The position numbers and the translations under genes were made by a program. Of a DNA stretch of 35,814 nucleotides, positions 108-10,131 are shown piece after piece. Every line of letters starts with the position of its first letter. Position 1 is the first letter of the stretch. Source of the stretch: Escherichia phage P88; sequence record NC_026014.1. The stretch is one strand, 5' to 3'. The notes beneath the pieces are model-generated. The model ran no database searches. It was not told the origin of the DNA and was given only the letters and a program-made list of their open reading frames with translations.

Positions 108-1139
108 TTATGGGCAATATCTGGACAACTCAGCCACAGGATTAAAGCGCACAGCATCCTGTAGATAATCCGGTGCAAAATGGGCATAAGTCATCGTCTG
201 CTGAATAGTGCTATGTCCAAGTATTCTCTGCAAAGTGATGATATTCCCACCATTAATCATGAAGTGAGTGGCAAAGGTATGCCGTAAAACATGTATCGAC
301 TGCCCTTCAGGAAGATCAGGCCTCACCTTTCTGATAGCAGCTCTGACAGCTGCATAACTTGGATAAATTAAACGACCAGTGGCCTTTGTTTTAATCATGC
401 ACTCCAGTTCTGACGATATAGGTATAACGCGACGCTTCCCATTTTTGGTTTCCATAAAAATGACTTTGCCGCTAATAACATGCTCCCCCTTGATATTTGC
501 AACCTCACTCCATCTTCCACCTGTTGCCAGACACAACAAGACGGCTTTTAATTCATCACCAGATAACAACTCCAGTAATCGTGGAATATCTTCATGATAC
601 AAATAAGCCATTTCAGGCTGTTTGATATTAAGTTTTTTCACATCATGAAACGGATTAGCCCCAGAATATTCCTCTGCGTCAATTAGTTTTGTGAAGAAAC
701 CACTCATCATTGCGCAATAACGATTAACCGTGGATTGTTTTATTCCGCGATTAAGCAACAATAACCGATAATTAATTATGTTCTTACGAGTAAGTTGGTC
801 ACTGCGTGTAACATTAATACTTTCAAGATCACTAATGACCGCAGAAATACGCACTCGCTCCATCGCACCGTAAGGATGATTTTTCCCGTGGTATAGCCAC
901 CAACAATCCAGCAACTCCCTCAGCGAGCGCCGTTCTGTTGGCTTATCAACCCAATCTTTGTCGTGGTAATGCTGCAATACATGACGCTCATACAAAACAG
1001 CCTCACCACGAGTATCAAATCGCCGCCTGAATCTCTTTCCTTCTGATCCAGCTGGCCGCACGTCCACACAAAATTTGCCATTAGCGAGCTTCTTAATCGA
1101 CATAAGGAAGCCCTCCAATGAAAACATCATCTTGATCAC
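108..1139 (-). CDS. int: Tyrosine site-specific integrase (P2 Int-like)
   Basis: 343 aa; C-terminal catalytic region HVLRHTFATHFMINGGNIITLQRILGHSTIQQTMTYAHF with the R..HxxR..Y tyrosine recombinase signature; sits next to the repressor as in P2. Confidence 0.95.
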   Translation of the reverse strand: MIKMMFSLEGFLMSIKKLANGKFCVDVRPAGSEGKRFRRRFDTRGEAVLYERHVLQHYHDKDWVDKPTERRSLRELLDCWWLYHGKNHPYGAMERVRISAVISDLESINVTRSDQLTRKNIINYRLLLLNRGIKQSTVNRYCAMMSGFFTKLIDAEEYSGANPFHDVKKLNIKQPEMAYLYHEDIPRLLELLSGDELKAVLLCLATGGRWSEVANIKGEHVISGKVIFMETKNGKRRVIPISSELECMIKTKATGRLIYPSYAAVRAAIRKVRPDLPEGQSIHVLRHTFATHFMINGGNIITLQRILGHSTIQQTMTYAHFAPDYLQDAVRFNPVAELSRYCP

Positions 1140-1169: not shown

Positions 1170-1469
1170 TTAACCAGTTTTCTTGCCGGAGCGGGATGAT
1201 TCCGCTTCGCCTTGCCCAATGTGTGCGAGAGCCGGTACAACCTGCCCGGCCTTGGGTTCAACTTCATCAAACAAAAACCAGTCGCGGTACTTACGGAACA
1301 TGGGGGCTTTCAGAAGCTTTTTTGTTGACTCAAGGTTGGGTTCATTTCGTCCTTGCTCATATTGCCTTAATGCAGCAAGAGTAAGCCCAGTAATCTCTGC
1401 CATTTTTTCTTGTGTAAGCATTTCTGACTTCCGCATGATGCGAATTTTCATAGCTACGGTAGTTGACAT
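1170..1469 (-). CDS. C: Immunity repressor, P2 C-like (HTH)
   Basis: 99 aa, same length as P2 C; HTH segment EKMAEITGLTLAALRQYEQGRNEP and C-terminal PALAHIGQ...SGKKTG recall P2 C; divergent from cox. Confidence 0.85.
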   Translation of the reverse strand: MSTTVAMKIRIMRKSEMLTQEKMAEITGLTLAALRQYEQGRNEPNLESTKKLLKAPMFRKYRDWFLFDEVEPKAGQVVPALAHIGQGEAESSRSGKKTG

Positions 1470-3130: not shown

Positions 3131-3334
3131 ATGGCAATTAAGCGATTTACCGTCGTTCGTTTCACTTCCAGAGGACGTGAATACGAAGTTGACGAACGGC
3201 TGATTAAAACGCTCGACCGTCACCGTTCGCAACCTGACGCGCATCACATTTATCTCACTGACGACACTTACTTCTGCGCCACCAACGTGGTGCAGGTGAA
3301 TCTTATCAGACAGGTACAGGAGTCACGCAGATGA
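3131..3334 (+). CDS. Hypothetical early protein
   Basis: 67-aa basic ORF with GGAGG SD; stop overlaps the next start. Confidence 0.5.
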   Translation: MAIKRFTVVRFTSRGREYEVDERLIKTLDRHRSQPDAHHIYLTDDTYFCATNVVQVNLIRQVQESRR

Positions 3335-3576
3335 CCATTCTGGACTACATCGCCGCCAATCCGGGTTGTAGCGGTGGAGAAATCGCCGCAGCACTGAATA
3401 CCCCAACCACAGCCATTAATGCGGAGTTACGCCGACTCTGGCGCAGCGGTTCAGTCATAAGAAAAGAGCGCAAAACAGGCGGTCGCTTTTCTTACCAGAT
3501 AAACCCGATGCCGTTCGGGTGCGGCAATCCACTTACCAACACGTTTAACCAGCTACTGAAGGAAGCCAGAGCATGA
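3331..3576 (+). CDS. Small winged-helix-like DNA-binding protein (putative)
   Basis: 81 aa; LDYIAANPGCSGGEIAAALNTPTTAINAELRRLWRSGSVIRKER has the helix-turn-wing pattern of MarR/LexA-N type domains; translationally coupled. Confidence 0.55.
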   Translation: MTILDYIAANPGCSGGEIAAALNTPTTAINAELRRLWRSGSVIRKERKTGGRFSYQINPMPFGCGNPLTNTFNQLLKEARA

Positions 3577-3887
3577 GCGCCATCAACCACCAGGAATTAC
3601 GCGAACTGGCGACTGACCTGCAACGAATGGCAACGCCTCAAAAATTACTGGCGTTTCGCGCAATGCTCTCGCCGTCTGCTGTGCTGGCGCTGCTGGATGA
3701 GCTGGAGCACGCCAGAACCATGGCTCCAGCCATTCGCCTGACGCTCCATCATGAAATCAAGGATTTCTGCGCGACGCTGGAGTCACCAGGCGAACCAGAA
3801 ACGCCGGAAGCAATGCAACAAGTGCTGCTGCAACGCATCGACAACGTTTTCGATTTTTTCCTTAACCAGCAAGGGACCACAGCATGA
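3573..3887 (+). CDS. Ead/Ea22-like family protein (putative)
   Basis: 104 aa; LRELA...PSAVLALLDELEHAR resembles the motif I recall from enterobacterial prophage Ead/Ea22-like proteins. Confidence 0.5.
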   Translation: MSAINHQELRELATDLQRMATPQKLLAFRAMLSPSAVLALLDELEHARTMAPAIRLTLHHEIKDFCATLESPGEPETPEAMQQVLLQRIDNVFDFFLNQQGTTA

Positions 3888-4087
3888 ACAAAAAGACCTG
3901 GTTTCGCGCATACATGTGGGCGCTGGTATGCGTCATCGTCTCTCTCATTCTGTATGCAGGACTACTCCCCCGAATGATTTCATCAGACAGCTCCTTCCTG
4001 GTATTGCTGGGCATTTTCATTGCCATGCTGTACCCGGCAGGCGTTGTTCGCCTTTTCAGTAAGTACATCAAGGAAATCAAACAATGA
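3884..4087 (+). CDS. Small two-TM membrane protein, likely partner of the downstream SPFH protein
   Basis: 67 aa with two hydrophobic helices (WALVCVIVSLILYAGLL and FLVLLGIFIAMLYPAGVV); stop overlaps the SPFH gene start. Confidence 0.6.
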   Translation: MNKKTWFRAYMWALVCVIVSLILYAGLLPRMISSDSSFLVLLGIFIAMLYPAGVVRLFSKYIKEIKQ

Positions 4088-4914
4088 AGAAATTCAAACT
4101 CTTTCAGATTCTCCCGCTTTTTGCCGCCATCCTGCTGGTTGGCTGCGATCGCGTTGAGCCAGGTAATGTGGGCATCAAAGTCAACAAGCTGGGCGACGAC
4201 AAAGGCGTTGGCGAAGTGGTTGGCGTTGGCCGCTACTGGACTGGCTGGAATACAGAGGTTTACATCTTCCCGACCTTCAAACAAATGAAGACCTACGATG
4301 AGCCGTTCAGCTTCCAGATGAGTGACGGCACAACCATCGGCTATCACATCGGCGTGGCTTACAAGGTTGATCCATCCAAAGTTACCACAGTGTTTCAGAC
4401 CTACCGCAAAGGCGTGGATGACATTACCGACACTGACCTGCGCCAGAAGATCGCCGATGCACTCAACCGACTGGCCAGCAAAATGACCACCGATAAGTTT
4501 ATCGACGGTGGTAAGTCTGAACTGCTGGATTCAGCACTTAAAGATATTCAGGAAGAGATGACCCCCATCGGCATTCAGGTCATGAGCCTCTCTTATGTCG
4601 GTAAACCGGAATATCCGCCAACCGTTATCGACAGCATTAACGCCAAAGTCACGGCAAACCAGAAAACCCTGCAACGCGAACAGGAAGTCAAGCAACGCGA
4701 AGCTGAAGCCAACATGTTGCGCGCAGAAGCTGCCGGACAGGCTGATGCCATTCGCACAAAAGCCCAGGCTGAAGCTGACGCCATTCGTTTACGCGGTGAA
4801 GCTCTGCGCCAGAATCCCGGCGTTATGGAGCTGGAAGCAATCAACAAATGGAACGGCACGCTGCCGCAATACATGACCAGCAATACTGCTGTTCCGTTTG
4901 TTCCGGTGAAGTAA
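4084..4914 (+). CDS. SPFH/Band-7 (stomatin/prohibitin/HflC-like) lipoprotein
   Basis: 276 aa; lipoprotein signal with lipobox LLVGC; SPFH-like core; Ala/Glu-rich C-terminal coiled coil typical of Band-7 proteins. Confidence 0.85.
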   Translation: MKKFKLFQILPLFAAILLVGCDRVEPGNVGIKVNKLGDDKGVGEVVGVGRYWTGWNTEVYIFPTFKQMKTYDEPFSFQMSDGTTIGYHIGVAYKVDPSKVTTVFQTYRKGVDDITDTDLRQKIADALNRLASKMTTDKFIDGGKSELLDSALKDIQEEMTPIGIQVMSLSYVGKPEYPPTVIDSINAKVTANQKTLQREQEVKQREAEANMLRAEAAGQADAIRTKAQAEADAIRLRGEALRQNPGVMELEAINKWNGTLPQYMTSNTAVPFVPVK

Positions 4915-4920
4915 TTAAAC

Positions 4921-4963
4921 CCGGCCAGTGAAAACCGCTGGCCGGAGCAGTATCAGGATTTTT
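4921..4963 (+). terminator. Putative intrinsic terminator after the SPFH gene
   Basis: Stem CCGGCCAG / CTGGCCGG followed within about 13 nt by a T-run. Confidence 0.35.
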
Positions 4964-5060
4964 TAGTATGTCGTTCTCACAAAAAAACCGCTTGCCATGC
5001 CGCAATCAGTCAGGTTACATTTCCGCTGCACCTCATAAAACGGGTGCCGGGATTTCCACC

Positions 5061-5102
5061 CCGCTGACAACTACAGCGCACAACCGCGCCAGCGGTTTTT
5101 TT
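5061..5102 (+). terminator. Putative intrinsic terminator within a structured non-coding region
   Basis: CCGCTG ... GCGCCAGCGG hairpin followed by seven T. Confidence 0.4.
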
Positions 5103-5281
5103 GTGCGTACTGTATCGCCACGTCTTTTTCGCACACGAATTATGGTGGGGCGTACGGGGCCGACTTCGGTCGGGCCGGGTTCTGTAGTTGCCGGTTGTGG
5201 AAACCCTGTACGTCTCACCACCCCGAGTTTTCCACCTCTGGATGGTGAGTTTTCAAAACTTGCAACTACAGAGGCCACACC

Positions 5282-5512
5282 ATGGCAAACCGCAAACAGC
5301 ACCGCGCTATCGCGGAGCGTCGTCACATCCAGACTGAAATCAACCGCAGACTTTTCCGCGCATCACGCGTCGCGCAAATCATGCACATCAATATGCTGCA
5401 TGAGCGCAGCCACGCACTATCAAACATCTATTCCGCCGCTGTTTTCAGCTATCTGGCGGATGATCTGCACGAGCTTCAACAGCTCATCCAGCAGCAAAAC
5501 AAACTCCATTAA
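5282..5512 (+). CDS. Hypothetical protein (uncertain)
   Basis: 76-aa ORF with AGAGG SD; basic, helical; no family recognised. Confidence 0.35.
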   Translation: MANRKQHRAIAERRHIQTEINRRLFRASRVAQIMHINMLHERSHALSNIYSAAVFSYLADDLHELQQLIQQQNKLH

Positions 5513-5584
5513 TTCCTGTTCCGGGCCTTTCCTGCACCTTGCGGCGGGAGGCCTTCGCACATCTGTAACAAGAGGATTGCCGCA

Positions 5585-5950
5585 ATGATTCTCGCCAACG
5601 ACTTTCTTGAATACCTGCTCAACACAGAACGTGATCTTGCCGCTCGCGTGCGTGAACGTTATGACATGTACCTGAAATCCCTGCCTGTACCGCAGCTCGC
5701 TGACGGAAAGATTGTTATTGATGGTCGCTACATGATTGACAGCCACGAGGGAAATTACAGGCTTTACCGCATTGAAGGTGGCACCCCGTCCGTTATTGGC
5801 ATTTACCAGCGCCCATCCTCTTCAATCGTCGATGTGATTGCCGACAGCATCCGCATCGCACATCGCCATGCCGACACAGAAGACACCGTGCTGGAAATTC
5901 AGCGGCTGGCTACAGTCTGCCGCGACACCCTGAATGGCATGACGAAGTAA
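5585..5950 (+). CDS. Hypothetical protein upstream of replication gene A
   Basis: 121-aa ORF ending 7 nt before the A start; same position as P2 orf81-83-type small genes. Confidence 0.55.
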   Translation: MILANDFLEYLLNTERDLAARVRERYDMYLKSLPVPQLADGKIVIDGRYMIDSHEGNYRLYRIEGGTPSVIGIYQRPSSSIVDVIADSIRIAHRHADTEDTVLEIQRLATVCRDTLNGMTK

Positions 5951-5956
5951 ATCACT

Positions 5957-8779
5957 ATGACGGCAGAGTACATCAGGGACTGGCAACAACCGCGCCACGC
6001 AGTGGGGCGTGAAGGAACGGGGATCCCCGCTCCTGAATCCGCGCTTTCCTCCTGGCTGGATGCCTACCGGGCAGAGAACGAGCGCCGCCAGGAAATGGCT
6101 GATGCGGCGTTCTCCGCCACGCCGCTGGGCAACCTGATTAATAAAAGCCTGGACGCACAGGAAAAACAGGACAAAACCATCACACTGGCAGGAGACGCCA
6201 GAAAACAGGCACGCGGCGCGGTGGATGAAGCCATGGCCTCGCTGCGCCTGCTGCCGTCCTATCTGCGCGATCCGCTTATTCGCCACCTCTCCTTCCTTCG
6301 CAAAAAACAGGAAGCCGATCGCCGGAAAGGCAAAAAGAGCTGGCAGGCGGAACGCTATGCACGCGGAACCCTGCGCAAAATATTCGAACGTCTGGATCGC
6401 ACTGACGGACGCTGGCTGACACCGGGTTATCGCTCCCTTGCCGGACGCGAACGCCTGGACGATTTGCTTTACCTGCCGCAGCTCAACAAACACCAGATAC
6501 AGACGCTGGCCACCATGACGGCAGCGATGTTCAGCAGCACCTTCGAAAAACTCTGCGATGGCTTTGGCGCGACTGATGGCGAACTGACCATGGATGTAAC
6601 GCTGAAGGCGTATCAGATGCTGGCCCGCATGGCGTTACACCTGCACGCTATGCCTCCACATTATGACGCACTGACAACAGACAAAGACCGGAGGAACGAA
6701 CCGGACACAGAGCTGCTGCCGGGCGCAATCCTTCGCCTGACCTGTGCGGAATGGTGGAAACGCAAACTGTGGCTGTTACGTTGCGAGTGGCGGGAAGAAC
6801 AACTCCGCGCCGCCTGTCTGGTTTCCAGAAAAACATCACCCTATCTGAGCCAGGACGCGTTAAGCGAGTTTCGCGCACACCGCGAGAAAACACGCGATTT
6901 CCTGAAAAGTTTCATGCTGGAAAATGAAGACGGGTTCACGATTGATCTCGAGACGGTGTATTACGCGGGAGTAAGTAACCCGGTTCACCGTAAGGCAGAA
7001 ATGATGGCCACCATGAAGGGGCTGGAACTTCTGGCCGAAGCCCGTGGCGACAGAGCGGTGTTTCTGACTGTCACCTGCCCGTCAAAATACCACGCAACAA
7101 CGGAGAACGGTCATCCGAATCCCAAATGGAACGGGGCCACCATGCGCGACTCCAGCGATTACCTGGTTAACACGTTTTTTGCGACGGTCCGCAAAAAACT
7201 GAACCGCGACGGTCTTCGCTGGTATGGCATCCGCACGGTGGAGCCTCACCATGACGGCACTGTGCACTGGCATATGATGGTCTTTGCACATCCGGACGAG
7301 ATTGAAACCATCGTGTCCCACGTCTGCGATATTGCCATTCAGGAAGACCGCCACGAGCTGGGCGATGATATTACTCCGCGTTTTAAAGCGGAGTACGTCG
7401 ACGGCTCAAAAGGCACGCCAACCAGCTACATCGCCACCTACATCGGAAAGAACCTGGACAGCCGCGCCGTGGATGGCATCGACCCGAAAACGGGCAAGCC
7501 ACGCGTTGACCACGAAACCGGAAAATCAATGGCCGAGAGCGTGGAGCGCGCCATCGGCTGGGCGCGCCTTCACCGGGTCCGCCAGTTCCAGTTCTTTGGC
7601 ATCCCCTCCCGTCAGGTGTGGCGTGAACTGCGCCGCCTTGCCAGCCAGATGGCACGCAACCCGGAAGGCCCGCAACGGCTGAAGGATGACGCAATGGATG
7701 CAGTGCTCGCTGCCGCTGATGCCGGGTGTTTTGCCTCCTACATTGAAAAACAGGGCGGCGTACTTGTTCCACGCCAGGACTACCTGATTCGCACCGCCTA
7801 CGACCTCGCAGATGAGCTGAACGATTACGGCGAACAGAGCGTACAGATTTACGGGATCTGGTCACCACTCATCGGGGAGTCTTCCCGTGTGTGCACACAT
7901 CCGGATAACTGGAAGCTGGTAAGACGTAAACCGGAAGCGGAAGACAGCGCCCGCGAAAATGGTTTTGACCTTCAGGGCGGCCCTGCCGCCCCTTGGACTC
8001 GTGGCAATAACTGTCCCCGTGTACAGGAAACGGACAACAACGGGACAGAACAGCCGGAAGAACGGCCAGCACCGTGGCCGCAGCTCCCTGACGGCGTTGA
8101 AGTGAACGAATGGATGCGCTCACTGAAACGGCACGAACGCCGGGCGCTGATGCGTTCGCTTCGTGACAAACAGGCAAAAAACAGCAGTGATGAAATGCAG
8201 AGCTGGACACAGAGCCGCAAACAGCAGCGGCCTTTGCCTGATAACCACGAATTACTCGCTAAAGAATGGCGGGAGTCTGCTGAATCTCTCGGCCTGCATA
8301 TCGGTGAACAACAGATGCAGCACCTGTTACGGGGCGGCAGTCTGTACGTTGACGGCAGCATCATTGCACCGCAGGGATTTGAAATTGTACGCAAACCGGA
8401 TACCCGCCCGGACAGCCGAATCACGCAGCTCTGGCAGCGCCTGAGCCGTAATCATGGCGTAAGCAGCACGGAGATCCGCCATAACCCGGTCGCCAGCTAT
8501 CTGGCACAGCTGGGGGCATCAGACCCTGAAGCCGCCGCACGCCTGGCATCCACACTTCAGCAGGACCAGAACACCATGAAAACACCCGTTACCGTGCTTT
8601 CTGACATGCTGCGCGCCATCCGCGACGCAGAGCACGCACAGAGAATCAGTGAAACCACTGAACGCGCCAGCCGCAAAGCAGACCTGCTGCGGGGTGGCCT
8701 GACCAGTGGAAACAAAAAACAGACAGAAACGGGACTCACGAATCCCGCAAATGAGCAAAAAACGCGCAGCGATATATGA
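5957..8779 (+). CDS. A: Rolling-circle replication initiator endonuclease (P2 gpA-like)
   Basis: 940 aa; HUH-type motif DGTVHWHMMVFAH and twin-tyrosine motif TPTSYIATYIGKN; long low-complexity C-terminal extension versus P2 A (761 aa). Confidence 0.9.
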   Translation: MTAEYIRDWQQPRHAVGREGTGIPAPESALSSWLDAYRAENERRQEMADAAFSATPLGNLINKSLDAQEKQDKTITLAGDARKQARGAVDEAMASLRLLPSYLRDPLIRHLSFLRKKQEADRRKGKKSWQAERYARGTLRKIFERLDRTDGRWLTPGYRSLAGRERLDDLLYLPQLNKHQIQTLATMTAAMFSSTFEKLCDGFGATDGELTMDVTLKAYQMLARMALHLHAMPPHYDALTTDKDRRNEPDTELLPGAILRLTCAEWWKRKLWLLRCEWREEQLRAACLVSRKTSPYLSQDALSEFRAHREKTRDFLKSFMLENEDGFTIDLETVYYAGVSNPVHRKAEMMATMKGLELLAEARGDRAVFLTVTCPSKYHATTENGHPNPKWNGATMRDSSDYLVNTFFATVRKKLNRDGLRWYGIRTVEPHHDGTVHWHMMVFAHPDEIETIVSHVCDIAIQEDRHELGDDITPRFKAEYVDGSKGTPTSYIATYIGKNLDSRAVDGIDPKTGKPRVDHETGKSMAESVERAIGWARLHRVRQFQFFGIPSRQVWRELRRLASQMARNPEGPQRLKDDAMDAVLAAADAGCFASYIEKQGGVLVPRQDYLIRTAYDLADELNDYGEQSVQIYGIWSPLIGESSRVCTHPDNWKLVRRKPEAEDSARENGFDLQGGPAAPWTRGNNCPRVQETDNNGTEQPEERPAPWPQLPDGVEVNEWMRSLKRHERRALMRSLRDKQAKNSSDEMQSWTQSRKQQRPLPDNHELLAKEWRESAESLGLHIGEQQMQHLLRGGSLYVDGSIIAPQGFEIVRKPDTRPDSRITQLWQRLSRNHGVSSTEIRHNPVASYLAQLGASDPEAAARLASTLQQDQNTMKTPVTVLSDMLRAIRDAEHAQRISETTERASRKADLLRGGLTSGNKKQTETGLTNPANEQKTRSDI

Positions 8780-8855: not shown

Positions 8856-9815
8856 ATGAAAATTTGTATCGACGACGGCTCCACCAACATCAAGCTGGCA
8901 TGGACTGAGAACGGCGAACGCCGCAACGCCATCAGCCCGAACAGCTTCAAGTCGGAATGGTCTGCGCCGTTCGGCGGCACGCAGCCCGCGAACTACATGC
9001 TTGATGGCGTGCGCTATGGTTTTGATCCGGTCAGCGATCGCTTTGTCCAGACGACCGACACGCAATACCAGTACAGCGATGTAAATGTCATTGCCATTCA
9101 TCACGCGCTGGTCAAATCAGGCATCACGCCACAGGAGGTGGATGTGGTTGTCACCCTGCCACTGAGCGAGTATTTCGACACAAACGCACAGCCGGACATG
9201 GCCAACATCAACCGCAAAAAAGCGAACGTTATGCGCCCGGTGGAGTACCAGAACGGCGAAGCATTCACTATCCGTAACGTGCGGGTTATGCCTGAATCCA
9301 TTCCGGCTGGCTTTAAAGCACTGGCTGACATGAGTCCGTTTGAATCCCTGCTGATTGTGGATTTAGGTGGAACCACGCTGGATGTGGCAAAGGTTCAGGG
9401 ACAACTGGCAGGTATCAGCCAGGTGTTTTGCGATCCACACGTAGGCGTTTCCCTGATGGCCGATGCAGTACTGTCGGTGATGGCCACTAACGGTATGCGT
9501 ACCAGTCACCACATCGCCAATACCATTATCGAACATCGCCATGATGAAGCCTGGCTGCGCCAGCACATCCACAATGACGCGCATTACGCCAGCCTGATGG
9601 CGGTTATTCGTGAAAAGGAAGAAACACTGAAACAACGCGTGATCCGCGCGCTGGCGGGTTTTTCGGGTTACGGGCGGGTGATGGTTGTCGGTGGCGGGGC
9701 GGAGATTGTGGCACCCGCTATCCGCGAAGCCTGCGGAGTTAATGCGACTTTCATCGCGGACGGGGTGCCACAGTTTGCTCTGGTTAATGGGCTGTACGCA
9801 ATGGACAAGGAGTAA
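8856..9815 (+). CDS. parM: ParM/StbA-like actin-type ATPase (type II partition motor)
   Basis: 319 aa; N-terminus MKICIDDGSTNIKLAW...ISPNSFKSEW co-linear with plasmid R1 ParM (MLVFIDDGSTNIKLQW...ISPNSFKREW, from memory); also QYSDVNV, IVDLGGTTLDV, VMVVGGGAE. Confidence 0.9.
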   Translation: MKICIDDGSTNIKLAWTENGERRNAISPNSFKSEWSAPFGGTQPANYMLDGVRYGFDPVSDRFVQTTDTQYQYSDVNVIAIHHALVKSGITPQEVDVVVTLPLSEYFDTNAQPDMANINRKKANVMRPVEYQNGEAFTIRNVRVMPESIPAGFKALADMSPFESLLIVDLGGTTLDVAKVQGQLAGISQVFCDPHVGVSLMADAVLSVMATNGMRTSHHIANTIIEHRHDEAWLRQHIHNDAHYASLMAVIREKEETLKQRVIRALAGFSGYGRVMVVGGGAEIVAPAIREACGVNATFIADGVPQFALVNGLYAMDKE

Positions 9816-9819
9816 ACCA

Positions 9820-10131
9820 ATGACGACACCAACCAGACGGATAAGTTTCTATCTGAAGCCCGCCGCCGTCAAGAACGAAGGCGAAGCATGCGCCTGGCTG
9901 GACAGCCTTACACCAGAAGCCCGCAAAAGCGGCCAACGTGTGGCTTTTCTGGCCGGGCTGGCACTTCTGAAAATGAATCCGGCAGAGGCTTACCGACTGG
10001 CTGCATGGGCTGACGATGAGGCGTTATCAGTGACACAAACCAGGACAGAACGCCCCGCGTCACAGCCAGTACCAACCACACAGATAACCAGTCGGATGGC
10101 CGGAAATATCAGGGCGTTATTTCCCGAATAA
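9820..10131 (+). CDS. parR: ParR/StbB-like centromere-binding adaptor
   Basis: 103 aa from the ATG 4 nt after the parM stop; RRISFYLKP...LDSLTP...RVAFLAGLALLKMNP parallels R1 ParR (RRTIAFKLNP...LDSIPQ...AALTAGLALYRQDP, from memory). Confidence 0.7.
   Translation: MTTPTRRISFYLKPAAVKNEGEACAWLDSLTPEARKSGQRVAFLAGLALLKMNPAEAYRLAAWADDEALSVTQTRTERPASQPVPTTQITSRMAGNIRALFPE

What the first reader, a model, noticed from the sequence alone, without database searches (positions are those of the whole stretch)
3884..4914. SPFH/Band-7 lipoprotein with a small two-TM partner at the end of the early operon
A secreted-lipoprotein SPFH protein, translationally coupled to a 67-aa two-helix membrane protein, is an unusual phage early gene. 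Host SPFH proteins HflK/HflC regulate the FtsH protease that degrades lambda CII and CIII (established knowledge), and SPFH proteins organise membrane microdomains. The pair could modulate FtsH or block superinfecting DNA entry (inference). Together with the ClpX-domain gene, the prophage would then target two host AAA+ protease systems.
Basis: partly seen in the sequence, partly recalled or inferred. Interest (0 to 1): 0.62.

Follow-up and report, generated by a model that had tools for sequence, protein, structure and literature searches.

The report
Phage SPFH lipoprotein with membrane-hairpin partner
This E. coli prophage carries a real, widespread two-gene phage module (a prohibitin/HflK-like SPFH lipoprotein plus a small two-helix membrane protein); the two proteins clearly work as one unit at the inner membrane, but their biological role is still unknown.

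Summary
Window 3884-4087 encodes a 67-aa two-TM hairpin protein. Window 4084-4914 encodes a 276-aa protein with a lipobox (LVGC, Asp+2) and a Band_7/SPFH domain (E 5.7e-31). The two genes are joined by ATGA stop/start overlaps.

Two descriptors are wrong:
- The pair is not at the end of the early operon. Regulatory RNAs and replication and partition genes follow it.
- It is not unusual. Homologues occur in 766 phage records, including N4 gp19/gp20, and in 714 of 5426 complete E. coli genomes.

Here it is a 1087-bp accessory insert that sequenced P88-like phages lack.

New findings:
- The hairpin gene lies immediately upstream in 78 of 80 close loci and in distant phages.
- At least 19 of the 150 best family clusters are natural hairpin-lipobox-SPFH fusions, so the two proteins act together at the inner membrane with SPFH facing the periplasm.
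- Mature SPFH is under extreme purifying selection (dN/dS 0.01-0.04), while the partner diverges to 22-40% identity.
- The fold is that of a cage-forming SPFH protomer. It is closest to prohibitins and HflK/C but is not a member of the HflK/HflC families.

Function is unproven. My best inference is a periplasm-facing membrane cage used in lytic growth. FtsH gating and superinfection exclusion remain untested candidates. It is a new member of a known kind, of moderate interest.

The parts
3891..4977 (+). 1087-bp accessory insert (both genes plus a 3' hairpin) relative to P88-like phages that lack it
   Evidence: blastn against Xuanwuvirus P88_4B11 (L001): 94% identity up to window 3890 and again from 4978, with nothing in between. 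Seven P88-like phage records match only the two flanks.
3884..4087 (+). Gene for the 67-aa two-TM hairpin partner. Predicted N-in/C-in topology: TM1 about residues 9-28, periplasmic loop 29-37 (PRMISSDSS), TM2 about residues 38-55, basic C-tail.
   Evidence: ORF; hydropathy; phrog_1130 at E 1.2e-22. The loop motif P-x-h-h-S has Pro in 24 of 24 and Ser in 23 of 24 free and fused homologues. ATGA overlaps at both ends.
4084..4914 (+). Gene for the 276-aa SPFH/Band-7 lipoprotein precursor
   Evidence: Pfam Band_7 at E 5.7e-31; phrog_200 at E 1.8e-112; AF2 model with pLDDT 76; Foldseek matches to prohibitin, erlin, HflK/C, stomatin and flotillin at E 1e-12 to 1e-8.
4084..4146 (+). Signal peptide (residues 1-20) and lipobox Cys21 (LVGC), followed by Asp22
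   Evidence: Read from the translation. Cys21 is invariant in alignment A2. Similarity to the Stx-phage and P1-like copies starts at window 4141-4144, about the lipobox Cys codon (4144-4146).
4150..4710 (+). SPFH domain (residues 23-209)
   Evidence: Pfam envelope. AF2 secondary structure: beta strands 20-95, helices 97-162, strand 164-176.
4618..4812 (+). Single long helix (residues 179-243), equivalent to the coiled-coil wall segment of SPFH cages
   Evidence: AF2 helix H179-243. It aligns to the coiled-coil region of HflK.
4840..4911 (+). C-terminal tail carrying the family signature I-N-K-W-N-G-x-L-P...P-F-x-x-K
   Evidence: K255, W256, G258 and P261 are invariant from E. coli phages to Staphylococcus phage K. 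The motif is present in 79 of 97 scorable representatives. It has low pLDDT in the monomer model.
4921..4945 (+). 10-bp GC-rich RNA hairpin just after the SPFH stop codon; the U6 tract lies 13 nt downstream, so it is not a canonical terminator
   Evidence: RNA fold: -21.1 kcal/mol, z -4.2, 0 of 200 shuffles fold as well. It lies inside the insert.

Best explanation
The cassette is a self-contained two-gene phage module of the N4 gp19/gp20 type.

What the proteins do physically:
- The SPFH precursor is exported, lipid-modified at Cys21 and held on the periplasmic face of the inner membrane.
- There it assembles, like other SPFH proteins, into a ring or cage over a patch of membrane.
- The two-TM hairpin partner is made in step with it through translational coupling. 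It sits in the same membrane and supplies the bilayer-spanning 'fence' or anchor that a lipid tail cannot. Its conserved periplasmic loop (P-x-h-h-S) is the likely docking point.

When and on what it acts:
- The module is transcribed with early lytic genes, not as a lysogen-expressed conversion gene.
- It most likely acts on a conserved host inner-membrane machine. By homology class and topology the leading candidate is gating of the FtsH membrane protease, for example to shield phage membrane proteins or regulators.

Shown here: domain identity, lipobox, hairpin, obligate pairing, natural fusions, strong constraint and early-operon position.
Inferred: inner-membrane retention, cage assembly, the fence role and the client. 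The FtsH client alone is about 0.25-0.3 likely.
For: Identity and fold:
- Band_7 at E 5.7e-31.
- The AF2 protomer has an SPFH domain, a 65-residue helix and a C-tail.
- It matches every solved cage-forming SPFH protein over its full length.
- Profile ranking against solved structures: prohibitin-1 2e-10, prohibitin-2 9e-9, HflK 2e-7, HflC 3e-6, erlin 1e-5, QmcA 3e-5, stomatin 0.03.

Unit of two proteins:
- The partner lies directly upstream with overlapping codons in 78 of 80 IMG/VR loci.
- The same arrangement occurs in N4, phiP27, P1-like, Klebsiella, Vibrio and Burkholderia phages.
- At least 19 of the best 150 family clusters are natural fusions of hairpin, signal-anchor with lipobox, and SPFH.
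- Two of these fusions were checked on phage-like contigs and have no separate small ORF upstream.
- P0001 is such a fusion in a P1-like element.

Topology:
- The fusion order forces the hairpin to be N-in/C-in and SPFH to be periplasmic at the inner membrane.
- Asp at +2 is the classical E. coli inner-membrane retention signal (established knowledge).

Expression:
- ATGA coupling to the preceding early gene.
- No promoter-like site upstream.
- Early or middle gene positions in four phage types: the Cox-side operon here, the pL side before xis/int, the P1 ban-operon position and the N4 middle region.

Conserved target:
- Mature SPFH dN/dS is 0.04 (dS 0.53) against phiP27 and 0.008 (dS 1.0) against the P1-like copy.
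- The partner is only 22-40% identical across the same comparisons.
Against: - No experiment, and no paper in the searched library, shows localisation, oligomerisation or a client.
- Arg at +3 may weaken Asp+2 retention, so outer-membrane sorting is not excluded. A Pasteurella prophage HflK/C-like protein of similar size was found in outer-membrane vesicles (PMC9872710). Its membership of this family was not checked.
- The monomer model says nothing about ring size.
- The protein is far below the HflK/HflC family thresholds, and no FtsH-contact feature could be evaluated.
- Distant homologues occur in haloarchaeal viruses. By my recollection their hosts lack FtsH; this was not checked here.
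- One cluster (P0164) has the hairpin at the C-terminus. That would invert the topology unless it is a low-coverage assembly artefact.
Confidence: 0.45

Rival explanations
1. Superinfection exclusion or envelope protection. A two-TM inner-membrane protein plus a periplasm-facing, membrane-anchored protein, made early, would block DNA entry or periplasmic transit of later-arriving phages. This is functionally like T4 Imm plus Sp. The fast-evolving hairpin would be the specificity element and SPFH the conserved scaffold.
For: - The architecture and timing parallel T4 Imm/Sp (established knowledge).
- The module is present in virulent phages.
- N4 gp18, next to gp19/gp20, is annotated as exclusion-related, and PhiSH19 lists an exclusion protein beside its SPFH gene (PMC3220722).
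- N4 responds to superinfection, yet its exclusion system is unidentified (PMC12642591).
- The partner is highly divergent while SPFH is almost unchanged.
Against: - No sequence similarity to any known exclusion protein.
- Exclusion proteins usually evolve fast, whereas mature SPFH has dN/dS 0.01-0.04.
- A cage covers only a small membrane area.
- In this prophage the genes sit in a repressor-controlled lytic operon, so lysogens would not be protected.
- TM hairpins diverge quickly even without an arms race.
Confidence: 0.2
2. Lysis timing or membrane-integrity control. The cage sequesters holins, or stabilises the energised inner membrane, so that lysis is delayed and burst size rises. The hairpin, which has class-II-holin-like topology, would act as a holin or antiholin-type factor.
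For: - The partner has a small N-in/C-in two-TM topology with a basic C-tail, as class II holins do.
- In Kayvirus the SPFH gene mbpS and a holin-like gene mbpV lie between the endolysin and Tgl genes (PMC7150955).
- N4 shows hours-long lysis inhibition whose mechanism is unsolved.
Against: - More than 60 N4 rapid-lysis mutants map to gp61, gp63, gp50 and the terminal repeats, and none to gp19/gp20.
- In the P2-like, lambdoid, P1-like and N4 genomes the pair is far from the lysis cassette, in early or middle regions.
Confidence: 0.12
3. Lysogenic-conversion factor. A prophage-expressed surface or vesicle lipoprotein alters host-bacterium interaction, for example through TLR2 stimulation, rather than serving the phage cycle.
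For: A prophage-encoded HflK/C-like protein of 25-35 kDa in Pasteurella multocida is expressed in culture, found in OMVs, activates TLR1/2 and contributes to virulence (PMC9872710). The gene is frequent in pathogenic E. coli prophages, including Stx phages.
Against: - There is no promoter of its own, and it is translationally coupled within the repressed early operon.
- It is equally common in strictly virulent phages.
- The obligate inner-membrane partner and the fusions argue for an inner-membrane role.
- Homology of PM0222 to this subfamily was not verified.
Confidence: 0.05

Closest known systems
Phage N4 gp19 (membrane protein) and gp20 (lipoprotein); PHROG 1130 and PHROG 200
   Same: Same two-gene order with overlapping codons. 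gp20 is 61.5% identical with a lipobox. gp19 is a 68-aa two-TM hairpin with the same loop motif.
   Different: N4 is virulent and its pair lies among middle genes. Neither protein has an assigned function, so the match names the family but not the role.
E. coli HflK/HflC, the FtsH-modulating SPFH cage
   Same: Periplasm-facing SPFH protein on the inner membrane. Same protomer plan of SPFH domain, long coiled-coil helix and C-terminal cap segment. Among the best sequence and fold matches.
   Different: One gene rather than a K/C pair. A lipid anchor plus a separate hairpin replaces the N-terminal TM helix. Only 17-19% identity, and 25.7 and 23.5 bits against family cut-offs of 134.4 and 159.4. 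FtsH binding is untested.
Prohibitin-1/2 rings of mitochondria
   Same: Best profile match to solved structures, at E 2e-10 over residues 18-234. They face the exoplasmic (intermembrane) side and scaffold an AAA+ membrane protease (established knowledge).
   Different: Eukaryotic, TM-anchored and hetero-oligomeric. About 15% identity.
SPFH-NfeD operons, e.g. E. coli QmcA-YbbJ (PDB 8z5g)
   Same: An SPFH gene is paired in one operon with a small membrane protein whose helices lie within the cage's membrane patch (established knowledge). QmcA is a significant fold and profile match.
   Different: The partner has no NfeD/OB-fold domain; no PF01957 hit, and at 67 aa it is too short. QmcA faces the cytoplasm, whereas this protein faces the periplasm.
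Kayvirus (phage K) MbpV/MbpS
   Same: A small membrane protein gene abuts an SPFH gene. MbpS is 24.6% identical and shares the C-terminal K-W-N-G-x-x-P signature.
   Different: Gram-positive host. MbpV has one TM and a long charged tail. MbpS has an N-terminal TM or an atypical lipobox. The pair sits in the lysis-gene neighbourhood. Its function is likewise unknown (PMC7150955).
T4 Imm and Sp superinfection-exclusion proteins
   Same: An early-expressed two-TM inner-membrane protein plus a periplasm-facing anchored protein. This is a resemblance in layout only, drawn from established knowledge.
   Different: No sequence or domain similarity was detected. Imm and Sp are separately encoded and are not SPFH proteins.

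Membership tests
SPFH / Band 7 superfamily (Pfam PF01145) | Significant match to the Band_7 profile above the gathering score | tested here: met
   108.4 bits against a cut-off of 23.6, E 5.7e-31, residues 23-209.
SPFH / Band 7 superfamily (Pfam PF01145) | SPFH alpha/beta domain followed by a long coiled-coil helix, as in cage protomers | tested here: met
   AF2 model with pLDDT 76. Foldseek gives full-length matches to prohibitin, erlin, HflK/C, stomatin, flotillin and QmcA.
SPFH / Band 7 superfamily (Pfam PF01145) | Assembly into a large ring or cage on a membrane | not testable with these tools
   Only a monomer could be modelled. Needs EM or a multimer prediction.
HflK/HflC FtsH modulators (NCBIfam TIGR01933 / TIGR01932) | Score above the equivalog cut-offs | tested here: not met
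   hflC 25.7 bits against 134.4; hflK 23.5 bits against 159.4.
HflK/HflC FtsH modulators (NCBIfam TIGR01933 / TIGR01932) | Two paralogous SPFH subunits, each with an N-terminal TM helix | tested here: not met
   A single SPFH gene with a lipobox. The neighbouring gene is a 67-aa hairpin without an SPFH domain.
HflK/HflC FtsH modulators (NCBIfam TIGR01933 / TIGR01932) | Bulk of the protein in the periplasm on the inner membrane | tested here: inconclusive
   Predicted from the signal peptide, lipobox, Asp+2 and the order of the fusion architectures. No localisation data.
HflK/HflC FtsH modulators (NCBIfam TIGR01933 / TIGR01932) | Binds FtsH and alters its proteolysis | not testable with these tools
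   Requires pull-down, cryo-EM or substrate half-life assays.
SPFH-NfeD operon | Partner carries an NfeD C-terminal OB-fold domain (PF01957) | tested here: not met
   No NfeD hit at E <= 0.1. The only hit is a sub-threshold RseC_MucC match at E 0.055.
Bacterial lipoprotein (Lgt/LspA substrates) | Basic n-region, hydrophobic h-region and lipobox [LVI][ASTVI][GAS]C within the first 35 residues or so | tested here: met
   MKKFK / LFQILPLFAAILL / LVGC with Cys21. The Cys is invariant in distant homologues. A lipobox is present in 79 of 97 scorable representatives.
Bacterial lipoprotein (Lgt/LspA substrates) | Actual lipid modification and inner-membrane retention (Asp at +2) | not testable with these tools
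   Asp22 is present, followed by Arg23. The strength of retention with Arg at +3 is uncertain.
Phage module PHROG 1130 + PHROG 200 (N4 gp19/gp20 type) | Both profiles matched, with the genes adjacent and co-oriented, hairpin first | tested here: met
   phrog_1130 at E 1.2e-22 and phrog_200 at E 1.8e-112. Synteny in N4 and others.
P1 Upl/Plp pair | Homology to P1 plp (126 aa) and upl | tested here: not met
   The reference P1 plp/upl genes are different, shorter genes. P1-like variants carry the SPFH cassette at that locus instead.
Known anti-phage defence systems (PADLOC) | Match to a defence-system protein model | tested here: not met
   No hit for SPFH. Only a 14-bit chance-level hit for the partner.
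Class II holins | Small two-TM N-in/C-in protein with a charged C-tail, encoded in a lysis cassette, lethal on triggering | tested here: inconclusive
   The topology fits, but the gene is in the early operon far from the lysis genes, and N4 rapid-lysis mutants do not map to gp19. Lethality is untested.

The most novel reading that the evidence does not exclude
Phages from many families deploy their own periplasm-facing SPFH cage. It is built from a near-invariant lipoprotein scaffold and a fast-diverging TM-hairpin subunit, sometimes made as one precursor that may be split at the lipobox. The cage would capture or wall off a conserved host inner-membrane machine such as FtsH during lytic growth. 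Alternatively, it could be the long-sought exclusion system of N4. Either reading would be a new class of phage host-takeover device.
Probability: 0.25. Interest if true: 0.7.

Novelty: new member of a known kind. Interest (0 to 1): 0.4.

Why it matters
SPFH cages (HflK/C, prohibitin, stomatin, flotillin, erlin) organise membrane microdomains and gate membrane proteases. The searched literature still calls their presence in phages unexplained.

This family is abundant. It occurs in about 13% of complete E. coli genomes, in Stx-converting phages, in P1-like and SSU5-like phage-plasmids, and in N4.

Three findings give a concrete, testable model and a tractable system (N4 gp19/gp20, or this cassette on a plasmid):
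- the SPFH protein always travels with a hairpin partner;
- the two are often fused;
- the scaffold is under extreme constraint.

If the client proves to be FtsH, or incoming phage DNA, it would reveal a new way for phages to remodel the host envelope. The work also corrects a propagated misannotation as 'serine protease'.

Tried and rejected
- **P1 upl-plp.** I suspected the pair was P1 upl-plp. The reference P1 record shows plp is a 126-aa unrelated gene. Rejected.
- **NfeD partner.** No Pfam NfeD hit. Rejected.
- **Defence system.** PADLOC found nothing.
- **Recent horizontal transfer.** This would explain 97% identity of mature SPFH between P2-like, lambdoid and P1-like copies. It is rejected because dS is 0.5-1.0. 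The cause is purifying selection.
- **Own promoter or moron-type expression.** No sigma-70-like site lies upstream here or in the phiP27 and P1-like copies. The consensus scan is weak evidence.
- **Canonical terminator after the gene.** There is only a strong hairpin with a distant U-tract.
- **N4 lysis-inhibition link.** Rapid-lysis mutants do not hit gp19/gp20.
- **Wider homologue sampling.** An alignment-seeded search returned mostly close relatives. The representative library gave the needed diversity instead.
- **afdb50 fold library.** Unavailable.
- **Alignment for modelling the natural fusion P0001.** The partner rows appeared mis-aligned, so it was not used.
- **HflK Arg191-FtsH contact.** Mapping it onto the phage protein was abandoned because the residue numbering could not be reconciled with the alignment.
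- **Literature.** Nine literature searches found no functional study of a phage SPFH protein.
Full report
**Where the window comes from**

The window is a P2-related, P88-like (Xuanwuvirus) prophage. It is 100% identical over the queried cassette to the chromosome of E. coli CFSAN051542, where it lies next to ppa.

The gene layout is as follows:
- integrase at 108-1139 (-) and a CI-type repressor at 1170-1469 (-);
- a rightward early operon that starts with Cox (1578-2003);
- several small ORFs, a MarR-type winged-helix gene (3331-3576) and an ead/Ea22-like gene (3573-3887).

**The observation**

The SPFH protein (4084-4914, 276 aa):
- It matches Pfam Band_7 at E 5.7e-31 over residues 23-209.
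- It matches phrog_200 'lipoprotein' at E 1.8e-112.
- Its N-terminus, MKKFK-LFQILPLFAAILL-LVGC, is a textbook lipobox with Cys21, followed by Asp22.
- That Cys is invariant in ten homologues, down to 24% identity.

The partner (3884-4087, 67 aa):
- It has two hydrophobic helices, basic N- and C-termini and a nine-residue loop, which predicts an N-in/C-in hairpin.
- It matches phrog_1130 'membrane protein' at E 1.2e-22.

The sequence shows ATGA stop/start overlaps at 3884-3887 and 4084-4087, each with a Shine-Dalgarno-like element 7-8 nt upstream. Three genes (ead-like, hairpin, SPFH) are therefore coupled.

**Corrections to the description**

The pair is not at the end of the early operon. The following lie downstream on the same strand:
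- an isrK-like RNA (5028-5102) and a C4 antisense RNA (5138-5225);
- a derepression-family ORF (5282-5512);
- the GPA replication protein (5957-8779);
- ParM and a Plasmid_stab_B protein (8856-10131);

The pair is not unusual either:
- tblastn finds the SPFH protein in 766 of 50,697 phage records. These include N4 (61.5% identity), Vequintavirinae, Vibrio, Burkholderia, Pseudomonas and Staphylococcus Kayvirus phages.
- The gene is in 714 of 5426 complete E. coli genomes, on chromosomal prophages and on P1-like and roughly 110-kb phage-plasmids.
- The full cassette is in 145 of those genomes.
- RefSeq already names it 'SPFH domain-containing protein'.
- Many Stx-phage records carry the misleading label 'serine protease'.

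**An accessory insert**

Against phage P88_4B11, similarity runs to window 3890 and resumes at 4978. Seven P88-like phage records match only the two flanks. The 1087-bp insert holds the two genes and a strong hairpin at 4921-4945 (-21.1 kcal/mol, z -4.2). Its U-tract lies 13 nt away, so it is not a canonical terminator. No sigma-70-like promoter precedes the pair.

**The two proteins are one unit**

- In 78 of 80 related IMG/VR loci a two-TM ORF ends on the SPFH start codon. The other two loci are cut by contig ends.
- The same arrangement holds in N4 (gp19/gp20), phiP27, P1-like elements, a Klebsiella lambdoid phage, Vibrio CKB-S1 and Burkholderia phi1026b. In SSE121 one small gene intervenes.
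- The hairpins are homologous. A loop motif P-x-h-h-S has Pro in 24 of 24 and Ser in 23 of 24 sequences.
- In the 1.84-billion-protein representative library the family has 221 clusters at E <= 1e-30.
- At least 19 of the best 150 clusters are natural fusions: hairpin, linker, signal-peptide-like helix with a retained lipobox Cys, then SPFH.
- Two such genes were checked on phage-like contigs. Neither has a separate small ORF upstream.
- A P1-like element carries an in-frame fusion of the same kind.
- The fusion order fixes the topology. The hairpin is N-in/C-in, the third helix crosses outward, and SPFH lies in the periplasm at the inner membrane. This agrees with Asp+2, the classical Lol-avoidance signal (established knowledge). 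Arg at +3 leaves some doubt.

**Evolution**

Mature SPFH is 97% identical between the P2-like, lambdoid and P1-like copies. The partner is only 22-40% identical and the signal peptide 30-40%. Nucleotide similarity to those copies starts at window 4141-4144, about the lipobox Cys codon (4144-4146).

This is not recent transfer:
- dS is 0.53 against phiP27 and 1.0 against the P1-like copy.
- dN is 0.020 and 0.008 respectively, giving dN/dS of 0.04 and 0.008.

Such constraint suits a protein whose surfaces are all used in a closed oligomer, and probably one that contacts a conserved host component.

**Fold and family**

The AF2 model (pLDDT 76) shows an SPFH alpha/beta domain, one 65-residue helix (179-243), a short helix and a flexible tail. 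The tail carries the family signature K-W-N-G-x-L-P...P-F.

Foldseek matches full-length protomers of prohibitin, erlin, HflK/C, stomatin, flotillin, QmcA and major vault protein at 14-19% identity. A family profile ranks solved proteins in this order:
- prohibitin-1 at 2e-10;
- prohibitin-2 at 9e-9;
- HflK at 2e-7;
- HflC at 3e-6;
- erlin at 1e-5;
- QmcA at 3e-5;
- stomatin at 0.03.

The protein therefore belongs to the SPFH superfamily and sits nearest the prohibitin/HflKC group. That group faces the exoplasmic side and scaffolds AAA+ membrane proteases.

It is not an HflK or HflC. It scores 25.7 and 23.5 bits against cut-offs of 134.4 and 159.4. It is one gene, not two, and it has a lipid anchor rather than a TM helix. 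The partner is not an NfeD protein. PADLOC finds no defence-system match.

**Expression context**

In four phage types the pair sits in early or middle, repressor-controlled regions:
- the Cox-side operon here;
- the pL side before xis/int in lambdoid prophages;
- the position between dmt and ban in P1-like elements, which in P1 is the C1-controlled ban operon;
- the N4 middle region.

In roughly 110-kb phage-plasmids the pair follows recA. Together with its presence in virulent phages, this points to a role in lytic growth rather than lysogenic conversion. This is an inference from position, with no transcript data.

**Mechanism**

Shown here:
- domain, lipobox, hairpin, coupling, obligate pairing, fusions and constraint.

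Inferred:
- The lipoprotein forms a ring or cage on the periplasmic face of the inner membrane.
- The hairpins give it a bilayer-spanning fence or anchor, docking through the conserved loop.
- The enclosed patch isolates a client.

The client is unknown. I rank the candidates as follows:
- **A conserved host machine, first.** FtsH is the leading candidate at about 0.25-0.3. The reasons are homology class, shared topology with HflK/C, the strong constraint, and the benefit that any phage gains from shielding its membrane proteins from FtsH.
- **Superinfection exclusion, second, at about 0.2.** The layout resembles T4 Imm/Sp. Exclusion-annotated genes lie next to the pair in N4 and PhiSH19. The N4 exclusion system is still unidentified.
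- **Lysis timing, less likely.** More than 60 N4 rapid-lysis mutants never map to gp19/gp20.
- **A virulence-lipoprotein role, unlikely here.** One was reported for a Pasteurella prophage HflK/C-like protein, but the operon context and the virulent-phage distribution argue against it.

**Literature**

Nine searches found no functional study. Genome papers merely note the domain. A 2026 paper states that its presence in phages 'remains unclear', and the Kayvirus paper speculates about secretion.

**Verdict**

- The specific functional inferences remain untested.
- The module is a known, widespread phage family, so this is a new member of a known kind.
- The pairing and fusion evidence and the selection pattern sharpen a testable model.
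- Interest is moderate.

Noticed in passing
window 5028-5102 and 5138-5225 (+), with ORFs 5282-5512 and 4968-5588: Just downstream of the cassette lie Rfam isrK (63.6 bits) and C4 antisense RNA (80.5 bits), followed by a 76-aa Derepression-family ORF (PF25738). This looks like a P1/P7 immI-like RNA-controlled anti-immunity module inside a P2-like prophage. The 206-aa ORF 4968-5588 overlaps both RNAs and is low in complexity. Some phage records annotate it as 'transcriptional regulator' or 'ash family protein'. It is probably not a real gene.
   Followed up: partly
window 8856-9815 and 9685-10131 (+): ParM (StbA_N plus the ParM C-terminal domain, E 1e-82 and 1e-68) and a Plasmid_stab_B protein are encoded after the replication gene of this integrated P2-like prophage. 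An actin-type partition system is unexpected in a chromosomally integrated phage.
   Followed up: no
Its function was not examined.
   Followed up: no
window 3890/4978 junction; Citrobacter phage Shae_phiSM (hit H7): The site between the ead/Ea22-like gene and isrK seems to be an insertion hot spot. Most P88-like phages are empty there, this prophage has the 1087-bp SPFH cassette, and Shae_phiSM has a different insert of about 560 bp.
   Followed up: no
L098 4001-5035 (protein P0164): One family member has the hairpin (GLVVPTLISSS...) fused to the C-terminus of the SPFH lipoprotein instead of the N-terminus. If real, this would invert the hairpin topology. The contig name indicates 2x coverage, so a frameshift that merged two genes is possible.
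   Followed up: partly
Fused family members such as P0159, P0170 and P0182 (loci L095, L096): All 16 N-terminal fusions with three hydrophobic helices keep an intact lipobox Cys after the third one. The precursor may therefore be lipidated and cleaved internally by signal peptidase II into hairpin and lipoprotein. That would be an unusual maturation route.
   Followed up: no
Stx2 phage and phiP27 records; L011: The SPFH gene is widely annotated as 'serine protease' or 'putative serine protease'. This is a legacy of the COG name 'membrane protease subunit, stomatin/prohibitin homologue'. No protease domain is present.
   Followed up: yes
L003 (P1-like MH422554) compared with L004 (reference P1): In P1-like elements the SPFH cassette occupies the dmt-ban interval. 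In reference P1 that interval holds tRNA genes, plp, upl and tciABC. It is a second accessory-gene exchange site carrying the same module.
   Followed up: partly
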